Shown here one piece after another: positions 236 to 21,700 of a stretch of DNA of 64,000 nt; positions within the stretch are counted from its first letter, which is position 1, and every line of letters begins with the position of its first letter. Both the position numbers and the translations under genes were made by a program. Where the stretch lies: the NCBI GenBank assembly GCA_013115125.1, contig JABANN010000073.1:1-64000 (forward strand), given 5' to 3'. Under the pieces are notes generated by a model. That model ran no database searches, was not told the DNA's origin, and saw nothing but the letters and a program-made list of their open reading frames with translations. The stretch is from Perkinsus olseni. Taxonomy: Eukaryota.

Positions 236-2010
236 TCACCTGCGGCCTGTGTGCAGGTAGTAGAGGGCTGCGAAGAATAGCACTTGCAGTACCACCGTCC
301 AGATAGTCAGCACAGTCATGTTGATGCCAAGATCGGTGTCTTCGAGGTTATACTCTCTCAAGATGAAATCTCCGAGCGGGGGAGCGCTATCAAACTCGGC
401 AAACATGAACGCTCCGAATGCGTACGTGTGGAACGCCAGGTGATGCACCCACTTCCAGCCTGACGGTATTCGATCGGGCGGTACCATAAATCCGCAAACT
501 AACATGAACATGCCGTAGATACCCGCTCCGAGGGCGATGCCGATGATGTAGTGAGGAGTGGCAGCCCCCAACAGCATCATGAGCGACTCTGATACAACCA
601 TCGAGAGGAATAGGTTGAGGAAAAACCAACCAAATGCGTGGAGCCCAGCGAGGCCGACTACCATTGCAGACGACACCAGTGCGATGATAGCGATACCCGG
701 CAAGCAGGCGAGGAAGTTGGCTGCAACGAACACCGCGACGTTGAGATTCGAGTTTGCACGCTCGCGCGCAAATACGGAGCGTATTTCGTCGAAGAAGGGC
801 AACACGGCGACCGCCATGAAGACCAGGAATGCCTGGACATAGAAGAGCATCGGGACCTGATCCCTCTGAGTGAGGGAGTCGTTGGTCCGGATGTACATAG
901 TGCCCACCATAAAGGAGAGGATAACATACATGACCAGGCGAACCCAGTAGATGCCGGGATTCCTCACGTTATTCTTGAAGTTTCTCACCAATAGGGTGAC
1001 GAACTGCTGCATTTTGCTCGGTCTGACCGACGACCAGATCTCTCTATCTGAAAGTGCGCGAGAGCTGGTGATATCATCCGGTGCGGGAGTCTCTTCGTCC
1101 ATGTCCTTCACTTCCTTGTAACGATCGATGAGACCGGGAACATCCCCGTGACCTGGGAAATCCGTATTGACTAGGTTCATCACATGCTCGGCAGGGTTAG
1201 TGAAGGCCGGGACAGGGTAACCGACAGAAGCAAAGTACTCCGGAACCTTATCAGGAGGGCCGAGATACACCACGCTGCCTTCAACAAGGAAGCAGACCTT
1301 GCTGAGCGACAGCCAGATGTCGCTGCTGGGCTGGTGGATGGTCACGATGATCGTGCACCGGTCCTCAACGGCAAGGTTTTTTAGGTACTCCATGATGTTG
1401 AAGGCCGAAGCCGAGTCCAGGCCAGAGGTGGGTTCATCTAGGAGAAGTACTGAAGGCGCCTTCAGTAGCTCGATGGCAACGCTCACGCGCCGCTTTTGGC
1501 CGCCTGAAATGCCCTTGCGGAAAACGTCGCCGATGAGGGTATTCTCACAGGACCGCAGACCCATGATGTCAATGACATGCTGGACACGACGTTCTCGCTC
1601 ATCGTGGCCTACTCGCTTGGGTAGGGCCAAGCGAGCGCTCTGCCGAAGTGTCTCCAATACGGTGAAAGAGCCCATGAGGCTGTCTTCTTGGGCAACGTAC
1701 GCAGATACCGCACGGAAGGAGATCGGCGTACGAGGGGTCTTGTTGAGTAAAACGTCGCCCATTATCTTGCCAGATGAAACACGGTCGGCCAGAATGTCCA
1801 GCAGAGAGGTTTTACCGGACCCAGAAGGTCCCATGATGGCGACGACCTCACCGGGAGCAGCCGAGCCAGACACGCTATTGAGAATTCTCTTAACACCGAG
1901 CTTCTTGCCCAACAGACTTTACGGGTGACCTCAAAGGTGATATCGCGCCAGTCAAGAGAATGAGAGTGTCTCTCGGCCTTATCAACCGGATCGCGAGTGT
2001 AGCTGCTCAT
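236..2010 (-). CDS. ABCG (White-family) half ABC transporter, intronless; apparent 1-nt frameshift near 1918-1920
   Basis: Walker A GPSGSGKT, signature ISGGQKRRV, Walker B LLLDEPTSGLD, then a multi-helix TMD (NBD-TMD order). The N-terminus MSSYTRD...LDWRDITFEVTRK starts at ATG 2010 in a different frame from the 236-1912 ORF. Confidence 0.93.
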
Positions 2011-2601
2011 GACGTAAGAGACTGGCCAGAACGCTGAAACGGGGACGTCAGCAAGTTCCCAGATACAACGGCGACTGGCTGACCTCAACTCGGTAATTAT
2101 TCTCCTCCTGTTCACTGAGCGGCGTTCAGTAAGTTTATTACGGACTCAGGATCGATTCTGGAATAAACTTACACCATCAAATGCCGTTCCGAGTTCAATT
2201 TAGAGTTTCAGATCTGTTCATTGAGCACAACCTCGGTCAAATCAGACTGATTGCCGAGACCCCGACACCATCTCATCTGCAAAGGCTTCGTACGTTGTTT
2301 GTGCGTTGGGGCGAGCGCTGAGAGAAAAAGGCGGAGCGAAGTGCTTCATGACTTGCAATTCTATGCGCAATATGGTATGCCAGACTGTCACGTCTCAAAG
2401 TGATGTGCCGTGGACTTAGAATAAGGCATTCCTAAGCGCGTCCCTGTTGCATTGTTCGACCGAGATGTGAAGGTACGCAGTTCGACTAACGCGGTACTTC
2501 GGGAAAGAGGCATTGAGTCTACTCGTGTGGGCCTTTCGTTTGTGCTGACTGCTGCCAGTGGAGCAAGCTCTCAGTTGGTGTTTTAATTCTCTTGGTTGGC
2601 G

Positions 2602-4881
2602 ATGAAAATACGGTTTCCAAGGTGCGGCTGCTTCGCTCCACCTGCAGTGAGGGATGAGGATGAGGATGAATTCTCGGGACCGGATCGAAGGACTAAGTCG
2701 TCTAGGAGCAGTACTCGGGTAATGCAGCAGGTCCGTTGGGATCTTAGGTCGCCGCTTGGTGATCTTGAGAGAAACTCTTGAACAGGTTCACACACCCGAC
2801 TTAAAGAACGTGTCTACTGATACCGAGGAGGCCACGATGGTGGACTTGCCGCCTGTGAGCATCCAGGTAATAATAAGAGGGTGGTCATCCTTCGGCGGCT
2901 TAGTCGGGACTCGTAATGACAGTGTGGCCGAGGTCCGTTCGAGGTAGGCCTTCTGTGTTCCTGCAGCGCGTTTCGCGGTGGACGGCAGCCATTCTCATTC
3001 TCATTACAATCGCCTGCTCGACGTCGCGATGTTGTAGTTTGTCGTGGATCCTAACTAATGCCCGGTACCCTGTAGTGTTCAAGATTATTCCATGTTTTCT
3101 ACTTCAGCGCATTCGTTCGTGGGTGAGCGACGACTTTTTTGACTGTGCCTCTGAGATCGGCGATATAGAGGAGACGTTCCCACCAGTAAGTGGAACACTT
3201 GGAACTTCTACTGATGTGCATCAGGGCTGTTTAACAGGATGCTCAGTCACATTTCTCATTGGTTTCCTAGCTCGCATGGGTATCCAAGGCGTATTGAGAA
3301 TCGTGCATTGATGATGACCCGGAAATGTGTCTGTACTGATCTATCCAGCCACGCGAACTCCCAGGACAGGAGCTCGCCTTTTGGTAGCCTGCATTGGCCC
3401 GGGGGAGCTGCTCTTGATGTTCGCTTGAAATGAGAAGACGGCCATTTGTTTCAGGCACTACGACAGGGAAACCAGTTGAATGATTTAACCCAAGTAGTAA
3501 AGGGGGATGGCTACTCTAGCTTAGAATGCTTGAAGTATCGGTACCTGCTACTTCAACGCGCTCTGTGAATTCCCTTCGACGGTTATCATTTGCCGCGTGA
3601 AAGTCTTCGGTTTAGCGTGTTATGAAGTTCATCAGGGAATGCTCGATGCCGCATTGGCAGCACAAGAAGCACTTCTGTTTTGGCACACTGGTGATGGCTC
3701 AAGTCAGTTCAAGGATGCGGGGAAGTCCGGGAAAGTTAAACTAGCGATAATTCCAGCTAAGGGAGAGACAATGCAGGTAATACTGGACCGTTATTCACAT
3801 CCACACTCACCATCACGCGAGGGCGAGTCGAGTAGGAGGGTATTGGGTGATTCGAGGCCTCGATTTTCCGTACTGGTCAATCGGCTGTTCTCATATCGGT
3901 GTTCGGGAGGATGTTGATGTAGAACTCGTTGTGCGATGCGAAGTGCGGGGTTGGACTATTCGTGGCCATACTAGTGGATATACTGATGACTCGGGTTCGA
4001 ACCTCGGCGAAGGTATTACTCCCCGCTTATAGGTTGTCAAAGGCACGGCTTCCTTCGGCGTCGGTGAATTGACTTTAGAAGAAGTGGTTGACTTTCTCAC
4101 GGACGTCGAGAAGAAGGGCAAGTACGACAGTCAGTTTGCTCAAGGTAACGTTGGTTCTTTTGGTGCGCTCACTCGAGGTCACTCGGTTACTTCCTAAGGT
4201 CACAAAAAGCGAGCCTTATACGAGGATCCATCGACGAAGCGCCGACTGGACCTAGACTATGCAGCGTACAAAGGTAGTGTTCGGGTCGCGGTTGACGTTC
4301 GTGGCGGTAGCCAAGCTTGTCACTTGTGGTTCCCTTCTCAGCTCAGTGGGGTGTGTCCGGCAGGGACTGTGCTCTTACTTCCGTTGTAGAGAAGCTAGGG
4401 GATGATATGTGGGTGATGTCGTCGAGGTCTTGTGAATATCCAGGTAGTGAATAGGTGGGATCAGACAGGTAGTTTTGCTTTGGAAGAAAGGGCGATGCTT
4501 CCCAGGTTATGGAGAAGGGGAGGTGCTTCCTGGGTATGTTCGGTGTCAAATCGTGAACGCTGGTAACGTAGTCGAGAGGGATCCGGACACGGGCGAGATC
4601 TTCGTGACGATGTACAGCCAGATGAGTATTGGTGGTAACATCCCGACGTGGATCGTCAATAAGGCACAGGTAGTAGTGCCTTGGAACGACCTGGAGGGCT
4701 CGCGGATGTGAACCATCGGGCTCTCGTGGAGGCCGCTCTGAGAATATGCTGCGCGGGAATCGCTTCCTCGCTGGCATTGTTCGCGTTAGTTGCGGTTTTT
4801 TTTCATTAGGCCAGAGCCCCGGGAGCCCTTCAAGACATGTATAACGGGTTGAAAAAGGAGAAGGCCGGTATGAGAGGATAG
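2602..4881 (+). CDS. START-domain lipid-transfer protein, paralog A (multi-exon)
   Basis: Spliced exons give ...SGRDCALTSVVEKLGDDMWVMSSRSCEYP/GYGEGEVLPGYVRCQIVNAG...GGNIPTWIVNKAQ/ARAPGALQDMYNGLKK...*, typical START/SRPBCC C-terminal motifs. Upstream SDDFFDCASE. Start codon tentative. Confidence 0.8.
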
Positions 4882-5164
4882 CTTATCAGCGAGAAGTTCG
4901 CGATACTTTGTTGCAATTGTAATTTGAATCTTGATCCAATGGATCCTGTGAAAGCTGCCTTCCATTCGGGGATCAGTGGTCCCACGAGTCATCTTCAATA
5001 TTTGATCTTTATTTGACGACATACGTTTCAGGCGATGAGTGGTATTGTGTTAAGTGTTGGCTACAGCTGACCGGCACGAAGGTGTTCCTGATAGTCGTTT
5101 TGATTAGCGAAAGTCCCCGGTTCTATCCTGGCGGGTAGTCGATTTCTTGATTTATTTTCACGTC

Positions 5165-7282
5165 GTGGGGTGCACCTCATCAAAGCCAAGCACTACTATC
5201 GTATTGGACCCGTGCAAGCTAGAGAGGAGTCGTTCTGGCCGGCATCTCCAATTTGATGTACCTATGCGATCATCGGAAAATATTTCCGTTAACGATAAGG
5301 CGCAGCGGCAGGTATGATCCGGGGCGCGTTGTATCGAATCAGTGGCTGGCGTAGACGCGGCCGCTGAGCCCATACCTTGCTCATAAGCGCAAGTTCCATT
5401 TCAGTGTGACACTTCGACGGCGGTTACCTTCTCATCGCGTGATGGTAGCGCTCACGGTCAGGTAGTAGTGTCGTTGTGCCTGGTAGTGATGATCGCTGGG
5501 AAGAGGGTTCATAGCCTCCAACGCGTGGATCAGTTCTGCAACTCGAACGCTGTCCTGCTTGCGTGCTGCCCACTCCATGCCTCTTCAGAACATGCTGAGC
5601 ATACCCGACGACGATTTCATGGATTGTTTATCGGTCGTGACCAGCAGTAACGGGGAGACCGAGGTGGGGTGTTGTCCACGCGCTGCTCGATTCACGGCGT
5701 GCGGACAGGTCGCTGCGTTAGCTCGACAGGTCAGCGGCCAGTTCGATGAGATGACCAAGGTAGTAATGGGATGGAATGGAGTGTTCAACAGCAACAAATT
5801 TCGGCTGGTACGTGGTGTTTATGGCGTGATATACTGAGCGAGACATTGGCCGAGGTAGCCGTTAGTGATGAGAAAACGGGGAAAACGCTGAACTTGTCTA
5901 TCATGGTACGCTGTAGAGGGTAAATTCTCCTGCGACGGCTTCTGGAAAGGCTTAGTTCGGCATTCACTACCTTTCAGACGCTGTTCGTTGCGGCCCGAAG
6001 CGCTCAGGCGGAGATTCTACAGTATTTAACCTCGGAGGGGGCGAGGGAATTCACGTCGCTCGGGAACGCGGGAGCTGTTGAAATAGCAGCCAGACCGCCA
6101 CCTGGTGGGGGAGTTTTTCAGGCAAGTATCTCCCGGAAGGACATGGAATGTTAGCGCGATTGCTCTCGTCGCTTCTTCATTGTGAAACTATCGTCCAATA
6201 CCGCGAACTGTGTGAAGTGCTGCGCTAATCAATGATGCCACGTCGATCGATACGCAGTACTAGGTCATGATGGGCCGCCGTTCGTTTGGTGTGGGCGAAG
6301 TTGACCTGAACGGGCTGCTGGACACCCTGATGGACCCCACTTCTCGGCCGAAATACAACACATATGCGGCGGGTGGTGAGTAGAGGGGTGAAAAGGGGCT
6401 GAGCCAGGGGGATGACGGTTGCGAAGGATTTTGACCTCTTTCGTGGAGGGTGAAGGCTAAGAGGGGCGCGATGTCTCTCAGGTGAGATCCTGAGAAAGGG
6501 TCTTATTGATGAGCCCGGGCGACGACTGGACCTCCAGTACGCTACTTTCAAAGGTATGGAGAGAGGGTTATCCAATACTGCGATTTGCGTGATTTCAGGT
6601 ATGCTGACCTTAGCGGGTAGAGACTGCGTCTACGCTATACTTCGCGAAAGGGTCCATGAGAATCTATGGGTAGTTTCGTGGAAATCTGTGGACATTCCTG
6701 GTGAGAGCTGTCCCACTCGTATCCTGGGTGTGCTTGCAACAAAGCCAACGAGGGAGGTAGTCATCAACTAATCGCTGGCTCGTTCTTCCACCAGCGATCT
6801 CACTTCGATCATGTGTGGATACTCTGAATCGAGTGTTGACTACTTGCCACAAGCATGTATGTGCCCTCGCAAGACGGAGTACCCGAGATGGCCTGATTTT
6901 CTCTACTCCCGAATATTTTGCGCATTTTTTCAGCGTTTTCCAACCATGGCCGGCAATCCGGTTTCGTGAGGTGTAACTTTTTATGCTGCGGTTATGCGAT
7001 AATGGTAGAACCGCAGACAGGGGAGCTCATCGTTACGATGATCAACCAGGCAGACCCTGGAGGGAACGTGAGAAAGATACCAACTTGGATAGCTAACAAG
7101 GTCCAGGTGAGGGTGCTCCGATGGATTCGAGAGAAGGATGCTGAGGTAACGTGAATTTTTGTCAGAGAGGACAGCCGGCGAGCCTGAACAACCTGTACGA
7201 CCTCCTCAAGCTGGGATGGAAAGTTGGTTGGGATAGTCCGCGTTTTTGTGTGAAGGGGAATGCACTGGGTTTGGGTCTTTGA
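5165..7282 (+). CDS. START-domain protein, paralog B; GTG in place of the ATG start
   Basis: GTG-GCTSSKPSTTIVLDPCKLERSRSGRHLQF aligns with the first exon of paralog C. START exons (AGRDCVYAILRERV...; GFVRCNF...IPTWIANKVQ) read open. Confidence 0.78.
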
Positions 7283-7751
7283 GCTAAAAAGTGGAATCAT
7301 GAGAATGAAAATTCTCTTTCTCCTTGCGTGGTCGACTCGCCTATCCCCCCAGGCATACCGGCAGCCCCTGGTGATTTTCTTTTCAGGATTAGCTGAGTAT
7401 GGAGCCGGCCGTGCACTAGTGCGTGCACCCTGTGCAGTGCGTCCTACCGGTTATTTAGAGTTTTTAGAGTCCGACGTCGCAGAGGGTGTCGGCGTTCGTT
7501 TTTCACGTACAGTATGTAAAGTACACTTGTGCTGTACCTTATATTTGTACGCTGATTTTTTGTGTTTGATTTTGACTTGTCTCATCGCCATGAGCGCCAT
7601 GTCTCTCAAACCATATTGATGTTGCGTCACAGCTGACCTTGCAAATGGCGTGGCATAGGGGTGGAGCACGCTGCTGGCATGATCGTGAGATCGAGTTCAA
7701 ATCTCTCAGTTGTTTTAACATAGGAAAGTATATTCAGTTCGACACTATAGG

Positions 7752-10242
7752 ATGGGATGCACTTCATCAAAGTCGACCAACACGATTGTGTTGGACCCTC
7801 GCTCATTGAAGCGGAGTAACTCTGGCCGGCATCTCCAATTTGCATTACCGACATCACCATCGGCCATCCATAGAGGCCCGATAGTCGAGGAGGTACCCAG
7901 TGAAGATGCTTCGCACAACTACAGCAACAAGCGTCAACAACAGGTACTGCCGGGGGTGAGTTGGACCTGAGTCAAACTCATTGTTCATCAGAAATTTTTG
8001 GTAGCATTTTTGAGTACCTAAGTTGATCAAAGAGGAATACGTGTATACGGTCGTTCGCGGAATGGGGAACGCGAGATTTGCGATGTGATATAAAGTGAAT
8101 TCACTTTGTGAGAATGACGTGGTGGCGACGGTACATCGCTTTTTTCCGGGAGCCCTGGACGTCTGAAAGGGTTTGAAAGACAGATTCGTGGATTGGTAGT
8201 ATACAGTAGAGTGATCAGTGTTATCTATGGCCGCATCGGTTGCGGGCGAGGGTCCCTCAAGCTTCGACACTCGCTTAGGGCTCGTTGCCCAACGGTTCGT
8301 CTCTGGGGTTTCCTGGTCTGGGCGTTACGCATCTCTGCAGTGAATGCTCGGCGTCTTCCGTAGAACAGTCTAACCTTCTCGGTTGAAAGAATTGGCTTGC
8401 GCATGCCTGCCGCTGTGTTGCTACCTTTCTTCTCTTTCAGCCACAACTGACGGAGCCACCGACAACCGACACTTCTCATGCAGACGACGATGACGTAATA
8501 TTCCCCTGGGTAACGGTTGGCTCGAATGCATCAATTCCCTTTCAGAGCCGGCTCATCCGAGTGAAGTCTTGGCGAAGCGAGGATTTTGCGGACTGCGTCT
8601 CGGCCATTAGTGAATTGCGGCTCGAAAATGGGGAAGTGGTAATAGGCGAGGGTGGATCAGCGTGGCATAGGATTGACGACGGGACGGATTTTCAATCAAA
8701 GACCTGCGTGTAGCTGTTCCAGCAGCGACTTACGAGTCTCCGGACTCAAGGGAGTTTCTGCCATTGATTATCGTTCGAAGTTTCATAACCAGTGTGGACC
8801 TTTCTCGATGATACTATGTTCATTTCGGTTCTAATGCTGGCGTAGCAGGAACATTACGGCACTGCTTGCCACAGCTCCAGAGCTCACGGAACGGTGCCCA
8901 ATTTCCCGTAGGACGTCAGGTTGAGAGAAAGTAATGAATTAGATGGTGGTGAAATGAGCGTCCGTACGCTGTGCGCGGTAGATAAATAATTTTTATGTAG
9001 AAGATAAGTATCATGGAAGATACTGTCAGGAAGATTAGTATCGATGCGCCCTACGGTTATACCATGTGATTGTTCGGGTATTCTTATTGCAGGTTACCCC
9101 AAAAGTTGTTCCGGCCGTTCCTACTTTGGACCCTGAGACGCAGGTGAGGCCGAGACCGTGCGTTCGATTCCCAGCCTCCCCATTTCTCAACTTCAGGAAC
9201 TGTTGGATGCGGCAATGGAATCCCAGCGGAAGATACTGTATTACTTATCACCCGAAGGGATGGCTGAATTCAATCCTAATGGGAAGTCTGGACCGGTGAC
9301 CCTCATGGTCGTACCACAGATGGACGATGTGCCACAGGTGAAGGACCCTGTCCCTGGGAGCCGCTCGAACGCTCTCTTTCCAGGTTGTAATGGGCTATCG
9401 CTCTTTCGGTAGCGGCGAGGTCGAGCTTAAGGATTTGCTCGACCTTCTGATGGACCCCGTGGCGAGAAAGAAGTTCGACAGCCAAACAGCTGATGGTAGA
9501 TCGGAACGCGGGACCTGCTCCGTCGATCAACCTGAGCAATTATGTTGGCAGGGAAGCTGTTGAAGAAGGGTATCATCGATGAGCCAGACAGGAGGCTCGA
9601 CTTTCACTACGGCGCGTTCAAAGGTAGGCCGTCTCCTGGATACGGGTAGCGAGGATGGTTTTCACGATTCTCCTTCCTTGCTGTACACCCCGAATTGATG
9701 TGCCACCGGCGACCTCAGTGGCCCACTTATTGGGCAGGAGCGCGAGAATGGCGAGGTGGTCGGGTAAAAGTCTCTGCCTGCATTCCTTGTTGGTTTTAGG
9801 TATGATGAACGTGGGGGGAAGAGACTGCGTGTATGCTATCTTGCGTGAGAAGATTCGGGATGATCTGTGGATCGTCTCTTCGAAATCAGTGGATCTCCCA
9901 GGTGGGTGCCTCACGCCGAACACTCTGCAGCGTTTGGCCTGCTGTGTGAGAGAAACGACGTTATTTTTTCTGTTCATTCAGAGTATCCTGAGAATGGCGT
10001 CCTCCCCGGGTACGTCCGGTGTGATGTGAAGTTCGCTGGGTATGCGATGTCGATTGATCCGAAGACTAAGGAGCTCACCGTAACGATGTACAATCAAGTG
10101 GATGTTAAAGGCAACATACCCACTTGGATCGTTAACAAGGCACAGGTATGAAACATCCCCGGGATTTCTAACTAACGGAGGTTCATTTCAGAATAAGCAA
10201 CCCGCCTGCTTGAATGATATGTACAAGCTGCTGAGGAACTAG
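7752..10242 (+). CDS. START-domain protein, paralog C, N-terminal MGC acylation motif
   Basis: MGCTSSKS... first exon; GGRDCVYAILREKIRDDLWIVSSKSVDLP/EYPENGVLPGYVRCDVKFAGY...KGNIPTWIVNKAQ/NKQPACLNDMYKLLRN*. Confidence 0.85.
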
Positions 10243-10674
10243 AGACGAACTTTCACAATGAGGGCAGTTCCATTCGGGGTCTTCCTCGCCCTCTGCCCCA
10301 CCCTCTTGTTCTCTGTCGCCTTCACTCCGTTTCAAGTGGGCTAAAATCGCTGTGATGACTGCGCAGCCCGGGCATCTTCCACTTTCGTTTTCAGCGTTGG
10401 TGCCGATTCATCGTTGGACTATTTGCTTATAATAGTGGCGTTGTATCGTCCGTTTCCTCGTCGGTTCTGCAATTTGCGTTGTGGGAGCTCTCCAGGCTTG
10501 GCTTCTTGTCGGTCCTCGACACAGCTGTCCTTCAACGCGGATATACGGGATAGTTGTACTCCAGCATAGATCTCCAGACAGAAAGATAACGGTCCACGGT
10601 CGCTAACACCGGCCTCCCGCGCTGGTGTCAGCTCTTATCTTTTCAGTTTAGAAGATATATATACACTCTAAATC

Positions 10675-12860
10675 ATGGGATGCTCGTTATCGACAGAAAC
10701 GAAGAGGGTGGTGTTGGACCCGAAGAAGCTCAAACGGACGCCATCTGGCAACCATTTCATCTTCGAAATACCGGTATCGGAGCTGGAGATGCCGGGCGAG
10801 AAAAGTCATCACAGGCATGAGGTAAGCTCGAGTAGGTTCTCAGCCAGCCATTTTCTCTCACCACTAATCTGAATGCAAATTGTTGGAGCATTTTCATTTC
10901 TCGAGGGGTACAGGAGCTACGCTGTCCGTACGATTCTGAAAGAAAAATTTTCCCGGCGGAGCTCTTCCGGATATCGCTTAGTGCAGGCCGTGTTGAACGA
11001 CGTTCGCTTCTCTAGGCTACGCGGGTTTGTGTCATCAGCACGGTCCAAATCTGCACTGTGTAGGAATGGCGTTTCTGTCGCAACATTTTTTCTCTCGTAA
11101 GGCACCTGCCTCGACTGCTGAGAATGTCGGCACGACCGAAGACACTGAGGTAATAGAGTTTTATGGTTAACGGGATCTCCTCAATCTTGCACATGGTTCT
11201 GAGAAATACAACAATTCACGCAAGAAGTGGCGCACACGTTACTGTTCACTTTCTCGCAACAACTGCGCTGGTCATCCTTCGAACGCAGCGTTTAGCGCCA
11301 GGGTTGGGCGTGCGAAGATAGTTTCTTTCTTCAGAGCCGCCTCGCTCATGTTCAATCCTGGACTAGCGACGACTTTCTCGATGCGATATCGGCCGACAGC
11401 CAGCTGCAGCTCGAGAACGGTGAAGTGGTAGGTTCTGCGAGTATTTGTTTCTACGCGGTGTCGAGGGAACCCGAAAGCCTTATGCTTGGTGTCCTGATTG
11501 ATCGGATCTTGATCGGATGCTTATGCTTGATCGGATCGTCGTCGTCTCAGGAAACCCCAACTGCGGCTAAGCCTGTTGCTCCTGCACTGCCACCTGAAAC
11601 GCAGGTAGGTCGAAGGCTCGATTTTGGCCACTCACTTTTCTTCGTTGTCAGAAATTTTTGGATGCTGCTTTGGATGCACAAAGAGCTATCCTTCATTACC
11701 TGTCACCCGAAGGCGAGGCCGAATTCAACCCCAATGGGAAGTCGGGGCCAGTGACGCTGATGGTCAAGCCGCAGACTGACGATGCTTTCCAGGTGAGTCC
11801 TTGCGGGAATAGTTTTCTCTAGGAGGGTCGGTGACGCAGTATGCGCGCAGGTCGTAATGGGATACCGCTCCTTCGGTGTGGACGAGGTTGATTTGCAGCA
11901 GCTCCTAGATGCTCTCATGGACCCAGAGGCTAGAAGCAAATTCGACAGTCAAACTGCTGATGGTAAAATCGTGAGACGGATACTCTTGATACCCCACGGA
12001 TAGCATTGAAACGACCAGATCGTAGGGGCACGGCGGCTCCGGTATATACTTGCTCTACGATTGGTGTAGCTTTTGCTTGAAAAGTCTGTGTGAGGGAATG
12101 AATCATATGGGACGGTGGGTATGTCTTTGGTCGTGAATTCCCAGAACGTGGATTTCGGCACCTGATACCGTCGGATATCTTTCCTTGCTCACGATTCCTT
12201 GAAACATAATGAATGCGAGACTCGACCTGGAATATTTATTGTCATTGAAATCTCGCTCCGCTTGCTGGTCCGTGGCTCGCGTCTCCGCTACCGCCAGCGA
12301 CTGGCCTTCTTGCGTAGGAAAAATGCTCGAGAAGGGCCTCATCGACGAACCAGAGAGACGACTGGATCTGCATTATAACGCTTTTAAAGGTACGCCTAAC
12401 TTTCTCAACGATCGAGCACCATTATGGTTTTCCACTCAGGGATGATGAACGTGGGCGGCCGCGATGCTGTGTTCGCTATTCTGCGACAGAAAATTAATGA
12501 CAATCTTTGGGTTATTTCGTCCAAGTCCGTTGACGTCCCAGGTGAGTATCACGCGTGCGTTCGTACTTTTGTCACCGGCGATCTTCAGAGTATCCGGAGA
12601 ATGGCGTCCTACCCGGGTACGTCCGAACGGATGTGAAGTTCGCTGGGTATGCGATGTCGATTAATTCGGAGACTAAGGAGCTAACCGTAACGATGTACAA
12701 TCAAGTAGATGTCAAGGGAAACATACCCACTTGGATCGTTAACAAGGCACAGGTAGCATAAACCTACAGCTTCGCCACGGCCCTTCCCTGATAGATTGCG
12801 TTCTAGAATAAGCAACCTGCGTGCTTGAATGATTTGTATAAGCTCCTGAAGAAGAACTGA
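10675..12860 (+). CDS. START-domain protein, paralog D, N-terminal MGC acylation motif
   Basis: MGCSLSTE... first exon. The 3' START exons are nearly identical to paralog C (EYPENGVLPGYVRTDVKFAGY...NKQPACLNDLYKLLKKN*). Confidence 0.85.
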
Positions 12861-13128: not shown

Positions 13129-14397
13129 ATGGGTCGCCTACGCTCCGGTACGCGCTTTCTGGTTCTCACCATCGGAGTTGCTCTCTGCCTACTCAACTCA
13201 CCGCTATTCGTTCAGCCGACCTCGCAGGTCGCAAGAGCCTCCCACTCCGCGGTGATGGGCTCAGCCAGAGGCGGGAATCTGCGCAGCTCCGCGCTCCCGT
13301 CTAGCCTTCAAACGCCATTTCCTTCATATCTCTGGGGTGTGTCTGTTGCCGTGGCCGGCCTAGGGCTCATTCTCCTTACGCGAGCAGCACTAGTTGGCCG
13401 TCGAGCACTCCCTGAGCGGTACCAGCTTACGGACGTCGACACTGGCGAGCACAGATCCTTCTGGCATGATGTGGGTCTCGCACTGGGTCAAGGTTCTTAC
13501 AGCGTGCTGGGTTGAGGCTTGCCGCGAGCTGCAGTTCATCCGAAATCACGCAGGAGTGCTCCCAGAGTGTGGTCATCTGCGTATCAGATACCTCTCCGTG
13601 GTAGCGAAGGAAAGTTCATGTTCGTGACAGAAATTCCCCGGGGACTCCTTGCACGATACGAGCTCGAACCGGATACATCGGACATAGCCAACGACCCTCG
13701 TGGCACCGCAGCATTGAAGAAGTGAGCAGTCGGACCCTTCGGCATTGGTCGCGTCTCAGAGATGGTTTATCAGATTGGGGACCGGGCCATGTTTCAACTA
13801 CGGTTTTCTACCACAGACATGGTCGGACCCCGTGGATTGGCATGACAAGATCACCGGCCTCAAGGGCGACGGTGATCCTCTCGACCTCATTGAGATCTCT
13901 GGTGCGAATTATCTTCTGTTCGTCACCATCCACTTCAGTATACGCTCAGGTAAACATTTGAAGCCGGGTGAAGTGGCTCAAGTGCAAGTGCTCGGGGCCG
14001 TGTGTTTGATCGATGAGGTAAGTCGGATGCTGCCTTGTTTGGTTTTGTGAATTTATCGGCGACAGGGAGCTGCGGATTGGAAGTTGATCGGAACAGCATG
14101 CTGCAAAAAACTCACGGAGAAAGAGGTCGCCCAGGAAATGAAGAAGGTCAAGGCATGGATGGATGGCTATAAAGCGCTGTTCGCCAAGGAGCCCACACGT
14201 AAGTTTCACCGTAATGGCTCGCAGGAGACTAGCGATTAGTTTTCGGATGTGCTTCAGAGTGGTACCTCGACGGGATGATATTTGACCGTACAGTTGCTTT
14301 GGACTTGATTGACCAGCAAAACAAGGTGTGGCTTGAAAAGAAGGGTGCGACTGCCAGTAAAGCAACCTCGAAGAATTTCAAGGTCGTGACTAGATAA
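13129..14397 (+). CDS. ppa: Family I soluble inorganic pyrophosphatase with long N-terminal targeting presequence
   Basis: SFWHD/IPL, EIPRG, FNYGFLPQTWSDP, GDGDPLD and LIDE/GAADWKLI motifs across exons; about 92-aa presequence with two hydrophobic segments. Confidence 0.9.
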
Positions 14398-17583: not shown

Positions 17584-18778
17584 AGGCAAAAACGCATGAA
17601 CTGACGGCAACCTTTCATACTATCAAGTAACTCTTTGTACAGAATTTCACGCTGCAGCTTCTATGCCTACACTTTGACAATGTGAGCACCATTTTCGACG
17701 GATGAGCAGCACCGCGTGCCTAGATGCTTTCGCCGGAACTCTTATCCCGGATAGTACAGCAACTCTCAACAAATTCTTTCCTTGCCACGGACTTACCAGT
17801 GACGGATGACAATGCCTACTCATGGTTGAATCACGGCACGTCATCCACTCAGTGAAGAACGGTTCTCTCTCTATCCACCGCACCCTCGCGTTAGTTCAGC
17901 CATTGACAGGCTGCAACGGGCATATGCTACATACGCACGTATTAGCACGAGTAGACGTAGTGTAGGAGACATCGCGCTACTCGAAAGAACCTGTTGAAGA
18001 GAAGTTGAAGGTCTGTCCTGGTCGGAGTCCCTACAAGCCCTTGCTGAGGGGAAGGCTCCTACGGAGAGACAGCTGTGTGCTTACTTTTAGTCTGCTTAAA
18101 TATGACGGTCTACACAGCCGCCGAAGTTTTTAGGTCGTGAAACCATGCAGTCGCCAACATTGGATTCCGGGGTATCCGGGGTGTTCCGTGAATCGATCCC
18201 GGGGCTGAATATCAGTTCGAGAAGTGACCGGACTGCGTTTGGTTCGGTTGGCTCCTTATCTTTCGAAGTCTTGCGCTGTACATGCGTGCAAGAATCTTGT
18301 GTTGGCTGTCCCAATTACCTGCTGGCCATTTTGATCTTTACAATACACCGGGTGCTTCGGGTCTGTTTATCTTGTATGATCGAAGCATTGTCCCAGCAAA
18401 GATCTTCATAGGCTCGAAGCTGGAGTTTGGGCCCCGGCCTTAAAACGCGACTACGCCTCACATTCCCGTGCGACAAATTTGCAGCCCTGGGCGGAGAACA
18501 GTATCAACTTCAGAAGAGGGACTTCAACCACTATCTCATAAATTCTCATTCCAGCGGTCGGCTCATGAGGAGGGTGTCGGGACACAGGTTTTGAGTTACA
18601 CAAACTGTGTCCGAGTGCTCGCTTTAATTTGTGCAATTCGTCTTCTTTGCTTCTGGGGGACAGCTAGGTTGAGTAGTGTTATTCAACATGTATGTGATTG
18701 CACGAAATTGGAAAGATTCTATATCGTTTCCTGCTCAGTTGTTTTGCCCCTCAATTTACAAACATTATCAATTTCGCC

Positions 18779-21700
18779 ATGGGTTTCGGCGTCACCGTCG
18801 TTGTAATCTGGAGTGCCGTGTTACTGTTCCTAATACTGGCAACAATCGGCTTCGTCATTTACCGGAGAGCACGTACTAATTGGCTCTTTGCAAAAGGGAG
18901 CGAACTGAAGGAGAAAAGCGCCGACATGGGATTGCGTCGGCTAACCTTCCACAGCCCTGATGAGCGGGAACGTCTCTTCGTTCAGTCTGGTCACAGGAGG
19001 TGTTGGTTCGGTGCGTTCCTTCTGATTGGTTGGTGTGCGGTTCTTATTTGCTCTGGCGTCAACATGGTCTTCTTCGCGATTATATCGTACTTCCCGGATG
19101 TTCTGAGTAGTTGGGGTACCGACTGGAATGGTGTTATGGGTCCCTGGCTTTACGTATTTGTACTCTTTCATGTGCTTGCGGCGATCATGATCACGTTCTT
19201 TCACGTTATGCGAGTGAATTTCATGCTGCCGGAAGTGAGCATGAGAGAGGCTACTCATGTGCTTATCGAGGAGGAAGTAGATGCTATCGACGAGAGCGAC
19301 ATGATTGACCCTGGCATGACGGAAGACGAGGCTGTCCCCGGTGTAGCGAGGCAGATTTACAACGTTTGGAATAACATGAAGAGCAAGTACAAGCAGGCTT
19401 CGTGTACTACTTTGGTCCCGGTTACGATCGACAAGAAGACGAAACACCGGGGTTTCGAGTACACCTGCGTGCGGTATCTCTATGATGAAAAGAATGACAG
19501 GTTCCGTCCTGTTGGTACTGCGGAGAAAACTGCCGATGAAGCGCACGCTTTGTTGAAGGTTGGTGGGATGTCTTCGAAGGAGGCTGCCAACATGGAGAAG
19601 ATTACCGGTCCTAATGCCATCAAGGTTAGGGTTCCGGGGATTTTCGAAAGTATCTTGGTAGAGTTCTGCGATGTCATCTACGTTTTCCAATCAATCGGTG
19701 CTTGGTCCTATGTTGCATTCTCCACTTGGAACATCGGTATCATCTGGCTGATTATGATGCTAGGCGCCGGTCTTATCCGAGCGCTTTTGATCGTTCGGGT
19801 CAGTCAGAAGAAGATCGCTAAGATGGCCAAGCTGGAGACTTGCGTCCACGTCCTTAGGGACGGCGAATGGGTCGAAGTAGGATCCCAGGATGTGGTTCTT
19901 GGGGATTTGGTTCGAGTCGAGGAGCAGGACCCACTTCCTTGTGATGGTATTGTCGTCAGCGGTACTGTTATTGTGAACGAGTCTATGCTAACTGGCGAGC
20001 CTATGCCAATCCAGAAGTTCCCGCTAGAGGACATGCGAGGTGCAACCGTTGGCCAGAAGAACCGAGCATATGCTGGTGAGTTCTGGGCTCCTCCGTTCTG
20101 GTTGGTGCTAAATCTCGACCGCTGACGTGCCTTCCAGCGCCTCGCTTGGTCATTCTTATTTTCTCTATCGTCAGGTACGATATGTATGCAGTCTACCGGC
20201 TCGTTCGACGGGAAGGCCGTGATGTTGTGTACAGCCGTCGGTGCTCTCACGAGCAAGGGCCAGCTGGTCCGGATGGTCTTATTCCCTCAGTCTGTGAGGT
20301 AGGTTCTCGCATGTCCAAGTGATTGGTTGATGACTCAGTCTTTGTTGCCCTTCAGGTTCAAGTATAATGACCAACTACCGATAATCTACACTATCATGTT
20401 CTGCTATGCTATGTTGATCACCGTCCTCTATGCAACCCTTACTGACCTTGGTTCTTGGATCGTTACGGTATTGCAGATCCTGAACACTATTGCACAGTCC
20501 ATGAACCCCATGCTTCCTGTGTCGATGGTGATGGGTCAGTCTGTGGCGTCGAAGAGGCTTGAGAGGAAGGAGAAAATCGCCTGCCTGCAGCCCGGACGAA
20601 TTCCCGTTGCGGGCAAGATATCTACTATGGTGTTCGACAAGACGGGAACCATCACGAAGGATGGCATGGACTTCGCCGCAGTGATCCCCGTTGACTTGGC
20701 ATCGGGTGATTTCTTGGATAGAGTTGTTTTTGACAACGACTTGCCTGTCGGTGATGACACTAACCACCATCTGGTGGCTGAGAAGGTTCCGCTGATAGTG
20801 CAGTACGGTCTGGCTTCGTGTCACACTGTCACATCTCTTCGTGACGGTAGTTTGGTGGGCAACCATGTGGACGTTGCTATGCTGACCACCACTGGATGGT
20901 CACTCCCTGATCCCGATTCGGGAAGCAACGTTATCGAGTCCCCTGCCGGTGTTGCCTCTCATAAGCTGGAGGTCGTGAAGGCTCTGGACTTTGATCACAA
21001 GCGTATGACGTCCGGAGCGGTGGTTCGAGATTTGGATACTAACGAGGTGATGGTCATCGTCAAGGGTTCTTACGAGCGTATCAATGCTCTTTCTGTGAAG
21101 GAGTCTATCCCTGGTGACTTTGTCACCGTCTCTGAGCAGTGTGCCGCTGACAACTTCTATACGCTCGCCATGGCGATCAAGACCCTGCCGAGCTCCATCT
21201 CAGACGAGGAGGTCGTCGCGACGAGTCGTGACAAGCTCGAAGACGGTTTGAGAATGTGTGGTTTGCTGCTCTTCCGCAACGAGATGAAGCACGATTCGCC
21301 TGCTGCTATTCAAGCTCTCAAGGACGGCAACGTGCGCAGTGTGGTTTGTACTGGTGATAACGTCTTGACTGGCGTTGCGATTGCAAAGCAATGCCATATA
21401 TTGGACGGTGATGCTGAGGGAAGAATTCTCATTGGAGATTTTAACAAGGAGTCGAAGGATTTGATCTGGTCCGATTCTGATACTGGCGAGCAGGACTGCA
21501 CCCCTGTACCGGGCGTTGATCAATTGGCTGTCACTCAGGGTGCTTGGAGGTACTTGCATTCCCACCGGGAGAAGTTGGAGGCTGTTTGGGAGGACATCTT
21601 CGTGTTCGCCCGTATGAAGCCCGAGGACAAGGTTAACGTTACGAAGTACCTCCAATCTCAGAAGTTGGTCGTTGGCATGTGTGGTGATGGTGGTAACGAC

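What the first reader, a model, noticed from the sequence alone, without database searches (positions are those of the whole stretch)
2602..12860. Four tandem START proteins with acylation motif + FFAT-like motif + START: a putative membrane-contact lipid-transfer family
Seen: each paralog keeps an acidic FFAT-like motif on an equivalent small exon within an otherwise divergent linker: SDDFFDCASE (3126-3155), DDDFMDCLS (5607-5633), SEDFADCVS (about 8576-8602), SDDFLDAIS (about 11365-11391). C and D start MGCTSS and MGCSLS, B has the same GCTSS after GTG, and A has CGCF near its N-terminus. Known: FFAT (EFFDAxE) binds the ER protein VAP; CERT and STARD3 combine FFAT with START; Gly2/Cys3 dual acylation targets plasma or pellicle membranes. 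Inference: acyl anchors replace the PH or MENTAL domain, giving tethers that shuttle lipid between ER and cell surface/alveoli. I do not recognise this architecture as described.
Basis: partly seen in the sequence, partly recalled or inferred. Interest (0 to 1): 0.82.

Follow-up and report, generated by a model that had tools for sequence, protein, structure and literature searches.

The report
Lipid-anchored START proteins with FFAT-like motif
Four neighbouring genes of the shellfish parasite Perkinsus encode small lipid-carrying proteins that appear to combine a fatty-acid membrane anchor with a short peptide of the kind that docks onto the endoplasmic reticulum, which would make them simple bridges for moving lipids between membranes; this is predicted from sequence, not yet shown.

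Summary
Window 2602-12860 (+) carries four tandem, ten-exon START-domain genes (A-D) of a Perkinsus olseni-like genome. All four motif coordinates are exact. RNA contigs from four runs splice A, C and D as modelled, with the motif exon included. C and D begin Met-Gly-Cys at the first AUG after a trans-splice acceptor. B has GTG at that position. A begins with a Cys-Gly-Cys cluster.

The motif is D-F-x-D-[A/C]-x-S, always preceded by an acidic residue. It is kept in 4 of 4 window genes and in 9 of 10 database models of this clade from three Perkinsus species. It lies in a poorly conserved, low-confidence (disordered) linker about 30 residues before the START fold. It occurs in only 3 of 142 other START relatives.

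Its core fits experimentally tolerated FFAT variants, but the acidic flank is weak (net +1 in C). VAP binding could not be tested, because no Perkinsus VAP sequence was reachable.

Published work shows that Plasmodium VAP binds FFAT and that an acyl-anchored FFAT alone builds ER-plasma-membrane contacts.

I found no paper describing this architecture. Verdict: a new variant of a known kind, of moderate interest.

The parts
2602..4881 (+). Gene A, CDS of 326 codons. Exons: 2602-2718, 2786-2866, 3108-3185, 3455-3493, 3636-3776, 4033-4144, 4199-4273, 4342-4443, 4506-4669, 4810-4881. The START domain is on exons 5-10 (3636-4881). The N-terminus is MKIRFPRCGCF, with no Gly2.
   Evidence: The model is. 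Joints 2866|3108, 4443|4506 and 4669|4810 appear in four runs. The contig length between pieces is 525 observed and 525 expected with exons 2-7 included. 2602 is the only ATG after the acceptor at 2573-2574.
2573..2574 (+). AG acceptor for spliced-leader trans-splicing of the gene A mRNA.
   Evidence: One X1 contig carries loose letters ending ...CTTGGCTCA just before 2573. These match the 3' part of the Perkinsus leader PmaSL1 as printed in PMC3101222.
3132..3152 (+). FFAT-like core of A, DFFDCAS. Upstream six residues are RSWVSD.
   Evidence: The same core is in the P. chesapeaki orthologue P0009.
5165..7282 (+). Gene B, an open reading of 349 codons if read from GTG 5165. Exons: 5165-5311, 5405-5461, 5589-5663, 5709-5759, 5978-6121 (GC donor), 6264-6375, 6482-6553, 6599-6700, 6934-7106, 7166-7282. 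It is possibly a decaying or silent copy in this genome.
   Evidence: The model comes from paralogy only. There is no ATG at the start and the next in-frame ATG is at 5264. Orthologues P0007 (starts MGC) and P0157 keep the motif. Its branches are longer than those of C and D, and identity to P. chesapeaki is 54% against 80% for C.
5613..5633 (+). FFAT-like core of B, DFMDCLS. Upstream six residues are LSIPDD.
7752..10242 (+). Gene C, CDS of 343 codons. Exons: 7752-7943, 8441-8494, 8546-8638, 9093-9143, 9197-9337, 9384-9495, 9552-9623, 9800-9901, 9982-10145, 10192-10242. It starts MGCTSSK. The START domain is on exons 5-10 (9197-10242).
   Evidence: The model is. Joints 7943|8441, 9143|9197, 9337|9384, 9495|9552, 9623|9800 and 9901|9982 are seen. 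A contig holds exactly 198 letters, the sum of exons 2+3+4, between exons 1 and 5. Contigs begin at 7708-7718, next to an AG at 7708-7709, and the first ATG after that is 7752.
8582..8602 (+). FFAT-like core of C, DFADCVS. Upstream six residues are KSWRSE, giving a net flank charge of +1.
   Evidence: The core is identical in P0005 (P. chesapeaki) and P0008 (P. marinus).
10675..12860 (+). Gene D, CDS of 328 codons. Exons: 10675-10821, 11102-11149, 11335-11427, 11551-11604, 11652-11792, 11851-11962, 12318-12389, 12440-12541, 12589-12752, 12807-12860. It starts MGCSLST. The START domain is on exons 5-10 (11652-12860).
   Evidence: The model is. Joints on both sides of the motif exon (11149|11335 and 11427|11551), plus four more, appear in three to four runs. 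The contig length is 194 observed and 194 expected. Contigs begin at 10645-10646 at an AG, and the first ATG after that is 10675.
11371..11391 (+). FFAT-like core of D, DFLDAIS. Upstream six residues are QSWTSD.
   Evidence: The same core is in the P. olseni models P0002 and P0003.
7782..7850 (+). Conserved N-terminal block of C, about residues 11-33 (pattern VLDP..LKR..SG.H..F..P). It is shared by B, C and D but not by A. Its role is unknown.
   Evidence: Alignments are. AlphaFold2 gives pLDDT 78-88 in P0005 and 70-71 in P0007, with the same secondary-structure pattern. In the word-based search it was found only on this START family: 2 hits among 6 candidates.

Best explanation
The locus is a tandem array of four paralogous genes for small (about 325-350 residue) START-domain lipid-transfer proteins. 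The clade has so far been seen only in Perkinsus.

Each protein has three parts:
- a short N-terminal membrane-anchoring signal (Met-Gly-Cys for myristate plus palmitate in C, D and the B orthologues; a Cys-Gly-Cys cluster for palmitate in A);
- a disordered linker of about 100 residues that holds one conserved FFAT-like peptide, acid-D-F-x-D-[A/C]-x-S;
- a C-terminal START helix-grip domain.

The most likely mechanism is as follows. [quoted passage not shown] The linker motif binds the MSP domain of the ER protein VAP. The START domain then shuttles a lipid across the resulting ER contact. This is the logic of CERT and STARD3, with an acyl anchor in place of the PH or MENTAL module.

Shown here: the gene structures, expression and splicing of A, C and D, the START fold, and the motif's conservation and disordered context.

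Inferred: acylation, the target membrane, VAP binding, lipid transfer and the lipid species.
For: RNA evidence: contigs of four runs show GT..AG joints that match the models of A, C and D. Contig lengths fit only if the motif exon is included (A 525=525, C 198=198, D 194=194).

START identity: Pfam START scores above cut-off in 4 of 4 relatives scanned. AlphaFold2 gives pLDDT above 95 for the domain in two paralogue types. Foldseek places STARD10, StAR, STARD4 and CERT on top.

Motif distribution and conservation:
- It is present in 4 of 4 window genes and in 9 of 10 database models of the clade that span the linker, from P. olseni, P. chesapeaki and P. marinus.
- The A and B orthologue groups each have 100/99 support, so the copies predate the split of the species.
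- Five of 8 invariant pre-START columns are motif columns.
- It is found in 3 of 142 other START relatives, and in 39-97 of 20,000 shuffles per linker.

Motif context: the motif region has pLDDT 39-58. No hydrophobic segment is present; the maximum Kyte-Doolittle 19-residue mean is 1.14.

Fit to FFAT rules in PMC3261905 (sections 5, 6 and 8 read):
- D1, C5 and S7 are listed natural substitutions.
- EFFECLS of Rab3GAP1 targets VAP strongly, and its flank also holds a Trp.
- DFLDA-E targets VAP (targeting ratio 1.32), which is D's core apart from S7.
- The paper's criteria of being cytoplasmic, not known to be helical, and conserved above neighbours are met.

Alveolate context, PMC13036008 (passages read):
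- P. falciparum VAP binds a conventional FFAT.
- A Lyn-anchored (acylated) FFAT alone creates ER-plasma-membrane contacts.
- Position -1 was acidic in all 7 binding motifs. Position -1 is D or E in 9 of 9 Perkinsus instances.

PMC13298984 (passages read) says that VAP is conserved across alveolates and works with VPS13A at ER-IMC contacts.

Distant relatives carry PH (3), MENTAL (2) or FYVE (2) modules among 53 long proteins scanned. Membrane targeting next to START is therefore the family's habit.
Against: No binding test was possible. No genome is held for the window, and no Perkinsus VAP sequence could be reached.

The acidic tract is weak. The net charge of the eight flanking residues is -1 (A), -2 to -3 (B), -2 (D) and +1 (C). 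The working motifs in Table 1 of PMC3261905 have -2 to -6.

Position 3 is aromatic only in A. Met (B) and Ala (C) at that position were not among the variants I saw tested.

The conserved Ser-Trp four to five residues upstream is not an FFAT feature. It may point to another partner or a wider interface.

AlphaFold2 draws a 5-6 residue helix over the motif, at low confidence, and a helical motif would not fit VAP (PMC3261905, section 8).

I could not compute the published FFAT score, because the matrix is in supplements or in papers that are not held.

The P. marinus D model P0006 lacks the motif exon; this may be a model error. A second Perkinsus START array (P0010, P0012, P0014, P0161, P0162) has no motif in 0 of 5 models, although P0010 also starts MGC.

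A lacks Gly2, so it cannot be myristoylated.

The acylation rules used here are recalled, not computed by a predictor.
Confidence: 0.5

Rival explanations
1. The conserved peptide is a functional short linear motif, but for something other than VAP. One option is a phospho-regulated acidic cluster recognised by a kinase. Another is a sorting adaptor or some other docking protein. The proteins would still be acyl-anchored START lipid carriers, but not ER tethers.
For: Ser and Trp upstream of the core are conserved in A, C and D (S-W-x-S), and these are not FFAT elements. The acidic flank is weak and net positive in C. Position 3 is not aromatic in B, C and D. Serines flank the acids in every copy, so phosphorylation could be the point of the motif.
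Against: The invariant residues are exactly the FFAT key positions: acid at -1, D1, F2, D4, a small residue at 5 and S7. Core variants of this type bind VAP in published assays (PMC3261905). The position just upstream of a START domain repeats CERT and STARD3. I could name no alternative motif class that fits all invariant positions.
Confidence: 0.27
2. The peptide is an intramolecular element. It would fold back on the START domain or on the conserved N-terminal block, for example as a lid or autoinhibitory segment that gates lipid access, rather than binding another protein.
For: AlphaFold2 puts a short helix on the motif in both models. The motif is 30 residues from the START N-terminal helix. 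START proteins are known to be regulated by flanking segments (abstract of PMC5104948, seen in the listing).
Against: The motif region has pLDDT 39-58 in both models, so no confident docking is predicted. By contrast the N-terminal block reaches 70-88. The residues conserved are acidic and polar apart from one Phe, which is unlike a packing surface.
Confidence: 0.12
3. The motif has no present function. It is a shared relic of the ancestral gene that has simply not yet diverged.
For: All copies descend from one ancestor, so four occurrences are not four independent events.
Against: The A-D products are only 37-70% identical overall. The surrounding linker has diverged almost completely, while the motif columns stay invariant in nine sequences from three species. 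The A and B lineages predate the split of the species.
Confidence: 0.04

Closest known systems
CERT (STARD11, ceramide transfer protein)
   Same: It has a membrane-targeting module, a disordered linker with an FFAT motif a few tens of residues before a C-terminal START domain, and serines beside the motif. Phosphorylation of those serines tunes VAP binding (PMC7705450 passages). The START fold matches (Foldseek E about 2e-11).
   Different: CERT targets the Golgi through a PH domain, and no PH domain is found here. CERT has the canonical core with a strong acidic tract. Sequence identity is 13-16%, so this is an analogue and not an orthologue.
STARD3 (MLN64)
   Same: It is anchored on one organelle, has an FFAT-type motif just upstream of START that binds ER VAP, and acts as both tether and sterol shuttle (PMC7705450). 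The START fold matches (5i9j and 1em2).
   Different: STARD3 is anchored by the four-helix MENTAL domain, which is not found here. Its motif is a phospho-FFAT with Ser at position 4, whereas the Perkinsus motifs have Asp at position 4.
Synthetic Lyn-EGFP-FFAT reporter in Plasmodium falciparum (PMC13036008)
   Same: It combines an N-terminal acylation signal with an FFAT peptide, and in an alveolate it sufficed to pull the ER to the plasma membrane through VAP (passages). This is the anchor-plus-motif half of the architecture proposed here.
   Different: It is an artificial construct with a conventional motif and no lipid-transfer domain. The natural VAP-proximal lipid-transfer proteins listed in that paper are GRAMD1, PITP, OSBP and four VPS13-like proteins. 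No START protein is among them in the passages I read.
STARD10 / PCTP group of minimal START proteins
   Same: STARD10 is the best sequence match among solved structures (6ser, E 6e-6) and the best Foldseek match (E 2e-13). One database relative is named 'phosphatidylcholine transfer protein, putative' by its source.
   Different: As far as I recall, these are soluble proteins without an anchor or an FFAT motif. Identity is only about 23%, so the ligand cannot be inferred.
Toxoplasma START-like proteins catalogued as 'PM-peripheral' (PMC10408353, Table 1)
   Same: They are alveolate START-domain proteins, and 3 of 8 are assigned a peripheral plasma-membrane location. The review proposes them as ER-PM contact candidates (passages).
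   Different: They are uncharacterised, and the passages I read report no FFAT motif or acylation signal for them. I did not compare their sequences, because none was reachable.

Membership tests
START domain (Pfam PF01852) | Match to the family profile above the curated cut-off | tested here: met
   P0002 scores 53.2, P0005 47.5, P0006 59.8 and P0001 84.3 bits against a cut-off of 22. These are 77-98% identical to the window products.
START domain (Pfam PF01852) | Helix-grip fold (N-terminal helix, antiparallel sheet, long C-terminal helix) | tested here: met
   AlphaFold2 gives pLDDT above 95 over residues 125-347 of P0005 and 140-365 of P0007. There are 111 PDB matches at E<=0.001, and all those listed are START-fold proteins.
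START domain (Pfam PF01852) | Binds or transfers a lipid | not testable with these tools
   This needs recombinant protein and liposome assays.
FFAT / FFAT-like motif (VAP MSP-domain ligand) | Phe or Tyr at core position 2 | tested here: met
   Phe in 9 of 9 instances. The F2 pocket is described in PMC7610837, section 5.
FFAT / FFAT-like motif (VAP MSP-domain ligand) | Acidic residue at position 4 | tested here: met
   Asp in 9 of 9 instances. Its importance was shown by the E4-to-A loss of targeting in PMC3261905.
FFAT / FFAT-like motif (VAP MSP-domain ligand) | Small residue at position 5 (Ala; Cys tolerated) | tested here: met
   Ala in D and Cys in A, B and C. C5 is tolerated in EFFECLS of Rab3GAP1.
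FFAT / FFAT-like motif (VAP MSP-domain ligand) | Acidic residue at position 1, and at position -1 in the Plasmodium consensus | tested here: met
   Asp at position 1 and Asp or Glu at position -1 in 9 of 9 instances. Position -1 was always acidic in the 7 PfVAP binders.
FFAT / FFAT-like motif (VAP MSP-domain ligand) | Aromatic residue at position 3 | tested here: inconclusive
   Phe occurs only in A (2 of 9 instances). Leu occurs in D and one B, Met in two B, and Ala in three C. Leu works in DFLDA-E and Lys in protrudin. I did not see Met or Ala tested.
FFAT / FFAT-like motif (VAP MSP-domain ligand) | Acid or Ser/Thr at position 7 | tested here: met
   Ser in 9 of 9 instances. S7 is tolerated but called somewhat suboptimal.
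FFAT / FFAT-like motif (VAP MSP-domain ligand) | Acidic tract in the six residues upstream | tested here: inconclusive
   There are one or two acids plus one to three Ser/Thr. The net flank charge is -1 to -3 for A, B and D, and +1 for C. This is weaker than the working motifs in Table 1 of PMC3261905.
FFAT / FFAT-like motif (VAP MSP-domain ligand) | Lies in an unstructured, cytosol-facing region | tested here: met
   pLDDT is 39-58 around the motif in two models. No transmembrane-like segment is present. A short low-confidence helix is drawn over the motif.
FFAT / FFAT-like motif (VAP MSP-domain ligand) | Key residues conserved among orthologues more than their neighbours | tested here: met
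FFAT / FFAT-like motif (VAP MSP-domain ligand) | Published score at or below threshold (2 or fewer suboptimal elements; Slee and Levine score) | not tested
   The scoring tables are in supplements (closed) or in papers that are not held. By likeness to scored entries of Table 1 (0.5 for EFFECLS, 1.5 for DFLDA-E) I guess about 1-3. That is a guess, not a computation.
FFAT / FFAT-like motif (VAP MSP-domain ligand) | Binds the MSP domain of the organism's VAP | not testable with these tools
   No genome is held for the window, and there was no route to a Perkinsus VAP sequence.
N-terminal dual acylation (N-myristoylation plus S-palmitoylation) | Initiator Met followed by Gly2 at the real start of translation | tested here: met
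   This is met for C and D: the first ATG after the apparent trans-splice acceptor gives Met-Gly. It is not met for A (Met-Lys) or for B in this genome (GTG).
N-terminal dual acylation (N-myristoylation plus S-palmitoylation) | Permissive residues after Gly2 (small uncharged at 3, Ser/Thr at 6) and a nearby Cys | tested here: met
   C reads G-C-T-S-S-K and D reads G-C-S-L-S-T. The rule itself is recalled, and no predictor was run.
N-terminal dual acylation (N-myristoylation plus S-palmitoylation) | Lipid actually attached | not testable with these tools
   This needs metabolic labelling or mass spectrometry.
CERT or STARD3 orthologue | PH domain (CERT) or MENTAL domain (STARD3) N-terminal of the motif | tested here: not met
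   Only START is found by Pfam in P0002, P0005, P0006 and P0001. The proteins work like CERT and STARD3 but are not members of those families.

The most novel reading that the evidence does not exclude
Perkinsids independently evolved a minimal contact-site lipid shuttle made of a fatty-acyl anchor, a VAP-binding FFAT-like peptide and a START domain, in about 330 residues. They then expanded it into four paralogues. These paralogues would serve different lipids or different acceptor membranes (plasma membrane versus alveolar sacs). Flanking serines would act as a phosphorylation switch, and a conserved N-terminal block would hold the START domain close to the anchored membrane. This would be the first natural acyl-anchored FFAT-START tether, and a shuttle-type counterpart to the VPS13-VAP bridges that feed the alveolate inner membrane complex.
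Probability: 0.35. Interest if true: 0.68.

Novelty: new variant of a known kind. Interest (0 to 1): 0.5.

Why it matters
How alveolates supply lipid to the plasma membrane and the alveolar sacs beneath it has only recently been opened up. VAP with VPS13-type bridges was shown at ER-IMC contacts in Toxoplasma and Plasmodium in 2026 (PMC13298984, PMC13036008). A 2023 review still called ER-plasma-membrane contacts in Toxoplasma undetermined (PMC10408353).

A small, expressed and conserved family that joins an acyl anchor, an FFAT-like peptide and a START domain would give a shuttle-type candidate for the same job. It would also be a natural version of the synthetic anchor-plus-FFAT tether.

The idea is cheap to test with peptides, point mutants and tagged proteins. 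It would also show that the CERT/STARD3 design was reached again by a different route.

If the motif does not bind VAP, the family is still a conserved, lineage-specific set of probably membrane-anchored START proteins carrying an unexplained linear motif.

Tried and rejected
1. VAP binding in silico. This was not possible. The genome search holds no genome for this window, no tool gave a route to a Perkinsus MSP-domain protein, and none of the 53 long relatives scanned carries an MSP domain.

2. Complex prediction. I used the one job on a side question: whether the conserved N-terminal block (residues 1-40 of P0005) docks on the START domain (residues 120-347). The verdict was 'no answer', with score 0.00 in two runs and controls not run. 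This is no evidence either way.

3. Expression of B. In the laid contigs, the bins over B (5232-7355) have depth 0 in X2, X3 and X10 and 8-35 in X1. One unspliced X1 piece covers 5730-6005. Missing cover in contigs proves nothing, so B's silence is only a suspicion. It rests mainly on the GTG start.

4. Published FFAT scoring matrix. It was not obtainable. It sits in Table EV4 or Table S2 (supplements closed), and Slee and Levine 2019 and Murphy and Levine 2016 are not held.

5. phmmer of the D motif exon against PDB chains at E<=10 gave 0 hits.

7. LIR, FxDxF and WxxF-type motifs. I checked these by eye against the nine instances and dropped them, because the invariant spacing does not fit. 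The definitions were recalled.

8. A lipid-handling gene cluster with the neighbours. The upstream ABCG transporter might fit. The downstream P-type ATPase is P5B-like (ATP13A2), not a P4 flippase. I did not pursue this further.

9. My first model of A (exon 1 to 2730, exon 2 from 2807) was rejected by the contig arithmetic and replaced.

Full report
WHAT IS THERE

The window is eukaryotic, with about 51% G+C, short exons and GT..AG introns. A 54-residue exon of the last gene matched only Perkinsus proteins: 6 of 7 candidates, at 89-98% identity. The spliced products are 93-98.5% identical to P. olseni database proteins. The source is therefore P. olseni or a very close relative.

tblastn of the gene D product against the whole window found four copies between 2.6 and 12.9 kb and none elsewhere. 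I built ten-exon models for all four. Intron positions and phases are the same in all four, and every internal intron is GT..AG except one GC..AG in B.

The products are 326 (A), 349 (B), 343 (C) and 328 (D) residues long, and they are 37-70% identical to each other.

CHECK OF THE OBSERVATION

C starts MGCTSS and D starts MGCSLS. B has GTG in place of ATG before GCTSS, and its next in-frame ATG is 33 codons downstream. A starts MKIRFPRCGCF.

START is confirmed by three lines of evidence:
- Pfam on 4 of 4 database relatives scanned;
- two AlphaFold2 models with pLDDT above 95 over the domain;
- Foldseek, with STARD10, StAR, STARD4, CERT, STARD5 and STARD3 on top.

Sequence-only search of the PDB gives STARD10 at E 6e-6.

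TRANSCRIPTS

Four runs hold spliced contigs of the locus. Two are on record as RNA, and for two the tool guessed RNA. The joints shown match my models.
- For A: 2866|3108 (into the motif exon), 4443|4506 and 4669|4810.
- For C: six joints.
- For D: six joints, including both sides of the motif exon (11149|11335 and 11427|11551).

Twenty-four further joints were not shown. Where a joint was hidden I used the contigs' own lengths. The letters between mapped pieces equal the sum of the intervening exons with the motif exon included (A 525=525, C 198=198, D 194=194). That arithmetic also corrected my first model of A.

One X1 contig carries loose letters before 2573 that end like the Perkinsus spliced leader PmaSL1 printed in PMC3101222 (passages read). 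Contigs of C and D begin at AG dinucleotides 42 and 28 bases before their ATGs. In all three genes the annotated ATG is the first one downstream.

CONSERVATION

The word-based search with the P. chesapeaki C orthologue returned 9 proteins among 1,962 candidates, and all were Perkinsus. The exhaustive HMMER search of 1.84 billion representatives gave 203 hits at E<=0.001 and only 8 at E<=1e-30.

The motif is present in 9 of 10 database models of the clade that span the linker (P0001, P0002, P0003, P0005, P0007, P0008, P0009, P0011, P0157). It is missing from P0006, the P. marinus D model, which skips two exons.

In the tree, the A orthologues and the B orthologues each group with 100/99 support. 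C and D are not resolved from each other. At least A and B therefore predate the species split and have kept the motif since.

Among A-D, 8 columns are invariant in the 114 residues before START, and 5 of them are motif columns. Outside the clade the pattern occurs in 3 of 142 proteins (80,308 residues). In shuffles it occurs in 0.2-0.5% of linkers.

A second Perkinsus START array (P0010, P0012, P0014, P0161, P0162) lacks the motif in 0 of 5 models, although P0010 also begins MGCTSSK.

IS IT AN FFAT MOTIF?

The definition was taken from PMC7610837 (sections 4 and 5 read). It is a core E1-F2-F3-D4-A5-x-E7 after an acidic flank, with F2 and A5 in pockets of the MSP domain.

PMC3261905 (sections 5, 6 and 8 read) lists D1, Y2, Y3, E4, C5 and D/S/T7 as natural substitutions. 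It shows strong VAP targeting by EFFECLS of Rab3GAP1, whose flank also contains Trp. It also shows targeting by DFLDA-E. The paper sets four criteria: cytoplasmic, not known to be helical, conserved above neighbours, and two or fewer suboptimal elements.

The nine Perkinsus instances all have an acid at -1, D1, F2, D4, A or C at 5, and S7.
- A's core, DFFDCAS, is a pure combination of the listed substitutions.
- D's core, DFLDAIS, is the tested DFLDA core with S7.
- B has Met or Leu at position 3, and C has Ala.

The first three criteria are met. I could not compute the fourth, because the scoring tables are supplements or are in papers that are not held.

The clear weakness is the flank. Net charge is -1 to -3 for A, B and D and +1 for C. 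One to three serines or threonines could add charge if phosphorylated, as described for CERT in PMC7705450 (passages read).

The conserved Ser-Trp upstream has no FFAT explanation.

ALVEOLATE CONTEXT

PMC13036008 (passages read) reports four relevant results:
- P. falciparum VAP binds a conventional FFAT.
- A Lyn-anchored FFAT reporter creates ER-plasma-membrane contacts.
- Seven of 11 candidate motifs bind.
- Position -1 is always acidic in the binders.

The last feature is present in all nine Perkinsus instances. The lipid-transfer proteins that paper found near VAP are GRAMD1, PITP, OSBP and four VPS13-like proteins.

PMC13298984 (passages read) reports a VAP conserved across alveolates that acts with VPS13A at ER-IMC contacts in Toxoplasma.

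PMC10408353 (passages read) lists eight START-like Toxoplasma proteins, three of them 'PM-peripheral', as uncharacterised candidates.

MECHANISM AND ODDS

I take the family to be acyl-anchored START lipid shuttles that use the linker peptide to hold on to ER VAP, working like CERT and STARD3.

My odds for the separate parts:
- START lipid-binding fold: about 0.97.
- Motif under selection as a linear motif: about 0.85.
- C and D acylated: about 0.75.
- Motif binds VAP: about 0.55.
- The whole chain of inference: about 0.5.

The rivals are another partner for the motif (0.27), an intramolecular role (0.12) and a relic without function (0.04).

The proteins are not members of the CERT or STARD3 families, because no PH or MENTAL domain is present.

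Distant relatives are often multi-START proteins with PH, MENTAL or FYVE modules. Ten of 133 relatives have two or more cysteines in their first 15 residues, against 2.3 expected. Lipid anchoring of START proteins may therefore be wider than this clade.

NOVELTY

No paper among those searched describes this architecture.
- 'Perkinsus' with 'FFAT': 0 papers.
- 'FFAT' with 'apicomplexan': 23 papers, 15 listed, none on a START protein by title or abstract.
- FFAT, START domain and myristoyl/palmitoyl: 88 papers, 15 listed, none relevant.

Supplements, which I could not open, might list such proteins, for example the FFAT tables of PMC13036008.

I rate the finding a new variant of a known kind, of moderate interest. 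It is a tidy, testable prediction in a little-studied lineage, not a surprise in principle.

Noticed in passing
window 236-1918 (-): One long open frame of 560 residues encodes an ABCG-type half transporter (ABC_tran plus ABC2_membrane). Its best PDB matches are Pdr5/Cdr1, plant ABCG16 and ABCG1/5/8. It lies divergently upstream of the START array. ABCG proteins often export lipids or sterols.
   Followed up: partly
window 13588-14394 (+): An inorganic pyrophosphatase gene lies just downstream of D. The database model P0003 wrongly fuses it to the D product (PF00719 plus START).
   Followed up: partly
window 18698-22849 (+): Two long frames encode a P-type ATPase. Its best PDB matches are P5B pumps (ATP13A2, E 3e-64), not P4 lipid flippases.
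   Followed up: partly
window 5165-7282 (+), gene B: B has GTG where its paralogues and its P. chesapeaki orthologue have ATG. Intron 5 has a GC donor (6121|6122). The C-terminus is longer and divergent, and the branch is faster-evolving. The reading frame is otherwise intact.
   Followed up: partly
database models P0001, P0011, P0002, P0003, P0006: Public gene models of this locus are chimeric or incomplete. P0001 joins parts of A, B and C. P0011 joins A and B. P0002 has an extra exon that the RNA joint 10821|11102 does not support. P0006 lacks exons 2-3. No P. olseni model contains exon 1 of C.
   Followed up: yes
proteins P0010, P0012, P0014, P0161, P0162 (other Perkinsus contigs): There is a second tandem START array in Perkinsus. 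P0010 starts MGCTSSK and holds four START repeats (a real multi-START protein or a fused model). It has no FFAT-like motif. In the tree, gene A groups with this array (95/94). The motif is therefore either older than both arrays and was lost in the second, or that grouping is a long-branch effect.
   Followed up: partly
C 7782-7850, D 10705-10773, B 5195-5263 (about residues 11-33): A conserved N-terminal block (VLDP..LKR..SG.H..F..P) follows the acylation signal in B, C and D but not in A. AlphaFold2 gives it pLDDT 70-88 with two short strands in two paralogue types. It was found on no other protein family.
   Followed up: partly
distant START relatives: Ten of 133 Met-initiated relatives have two or more Cys in their first 15 residues, against 2.3 expected (for example P0046, P0070, P0107, P0108). 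This hints that N-terminal palmitoylation of small START proteins is widespread in unnamed, mostly metagenomic protists.
   Followed up: partly
protein P0076 (metagenomic, 534 aa): An unrelated, unnamed START protein carries a near-canonical FFAT (acid-rich flank, D-F-V-D-A-E-E) about 165 residues before its START domain. FFAT plus START has therefore arisen in further lineages.
   Followed up: no
window 2573-2574, 7708-7709, 10645-10646: These are AG dinucleotides where RNA contigs begin. At 2573 one contig carries the tail of the Perkinsus spliced leader. The tandem genes seem to be trans-spliced individually, 27-42 bases before their start codons.
   Followed up: partly
window 52803-54374 (+) and 57122-57613 (+): There is a frame with a nucleotide-diphospho-sugar transferase domain (PF03407), and a further E1-E2 ATPase fragment. 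Only 34 of the 93 frames of 110 or more residues in the window were scanned, and short exons were not.
   Followed up: no
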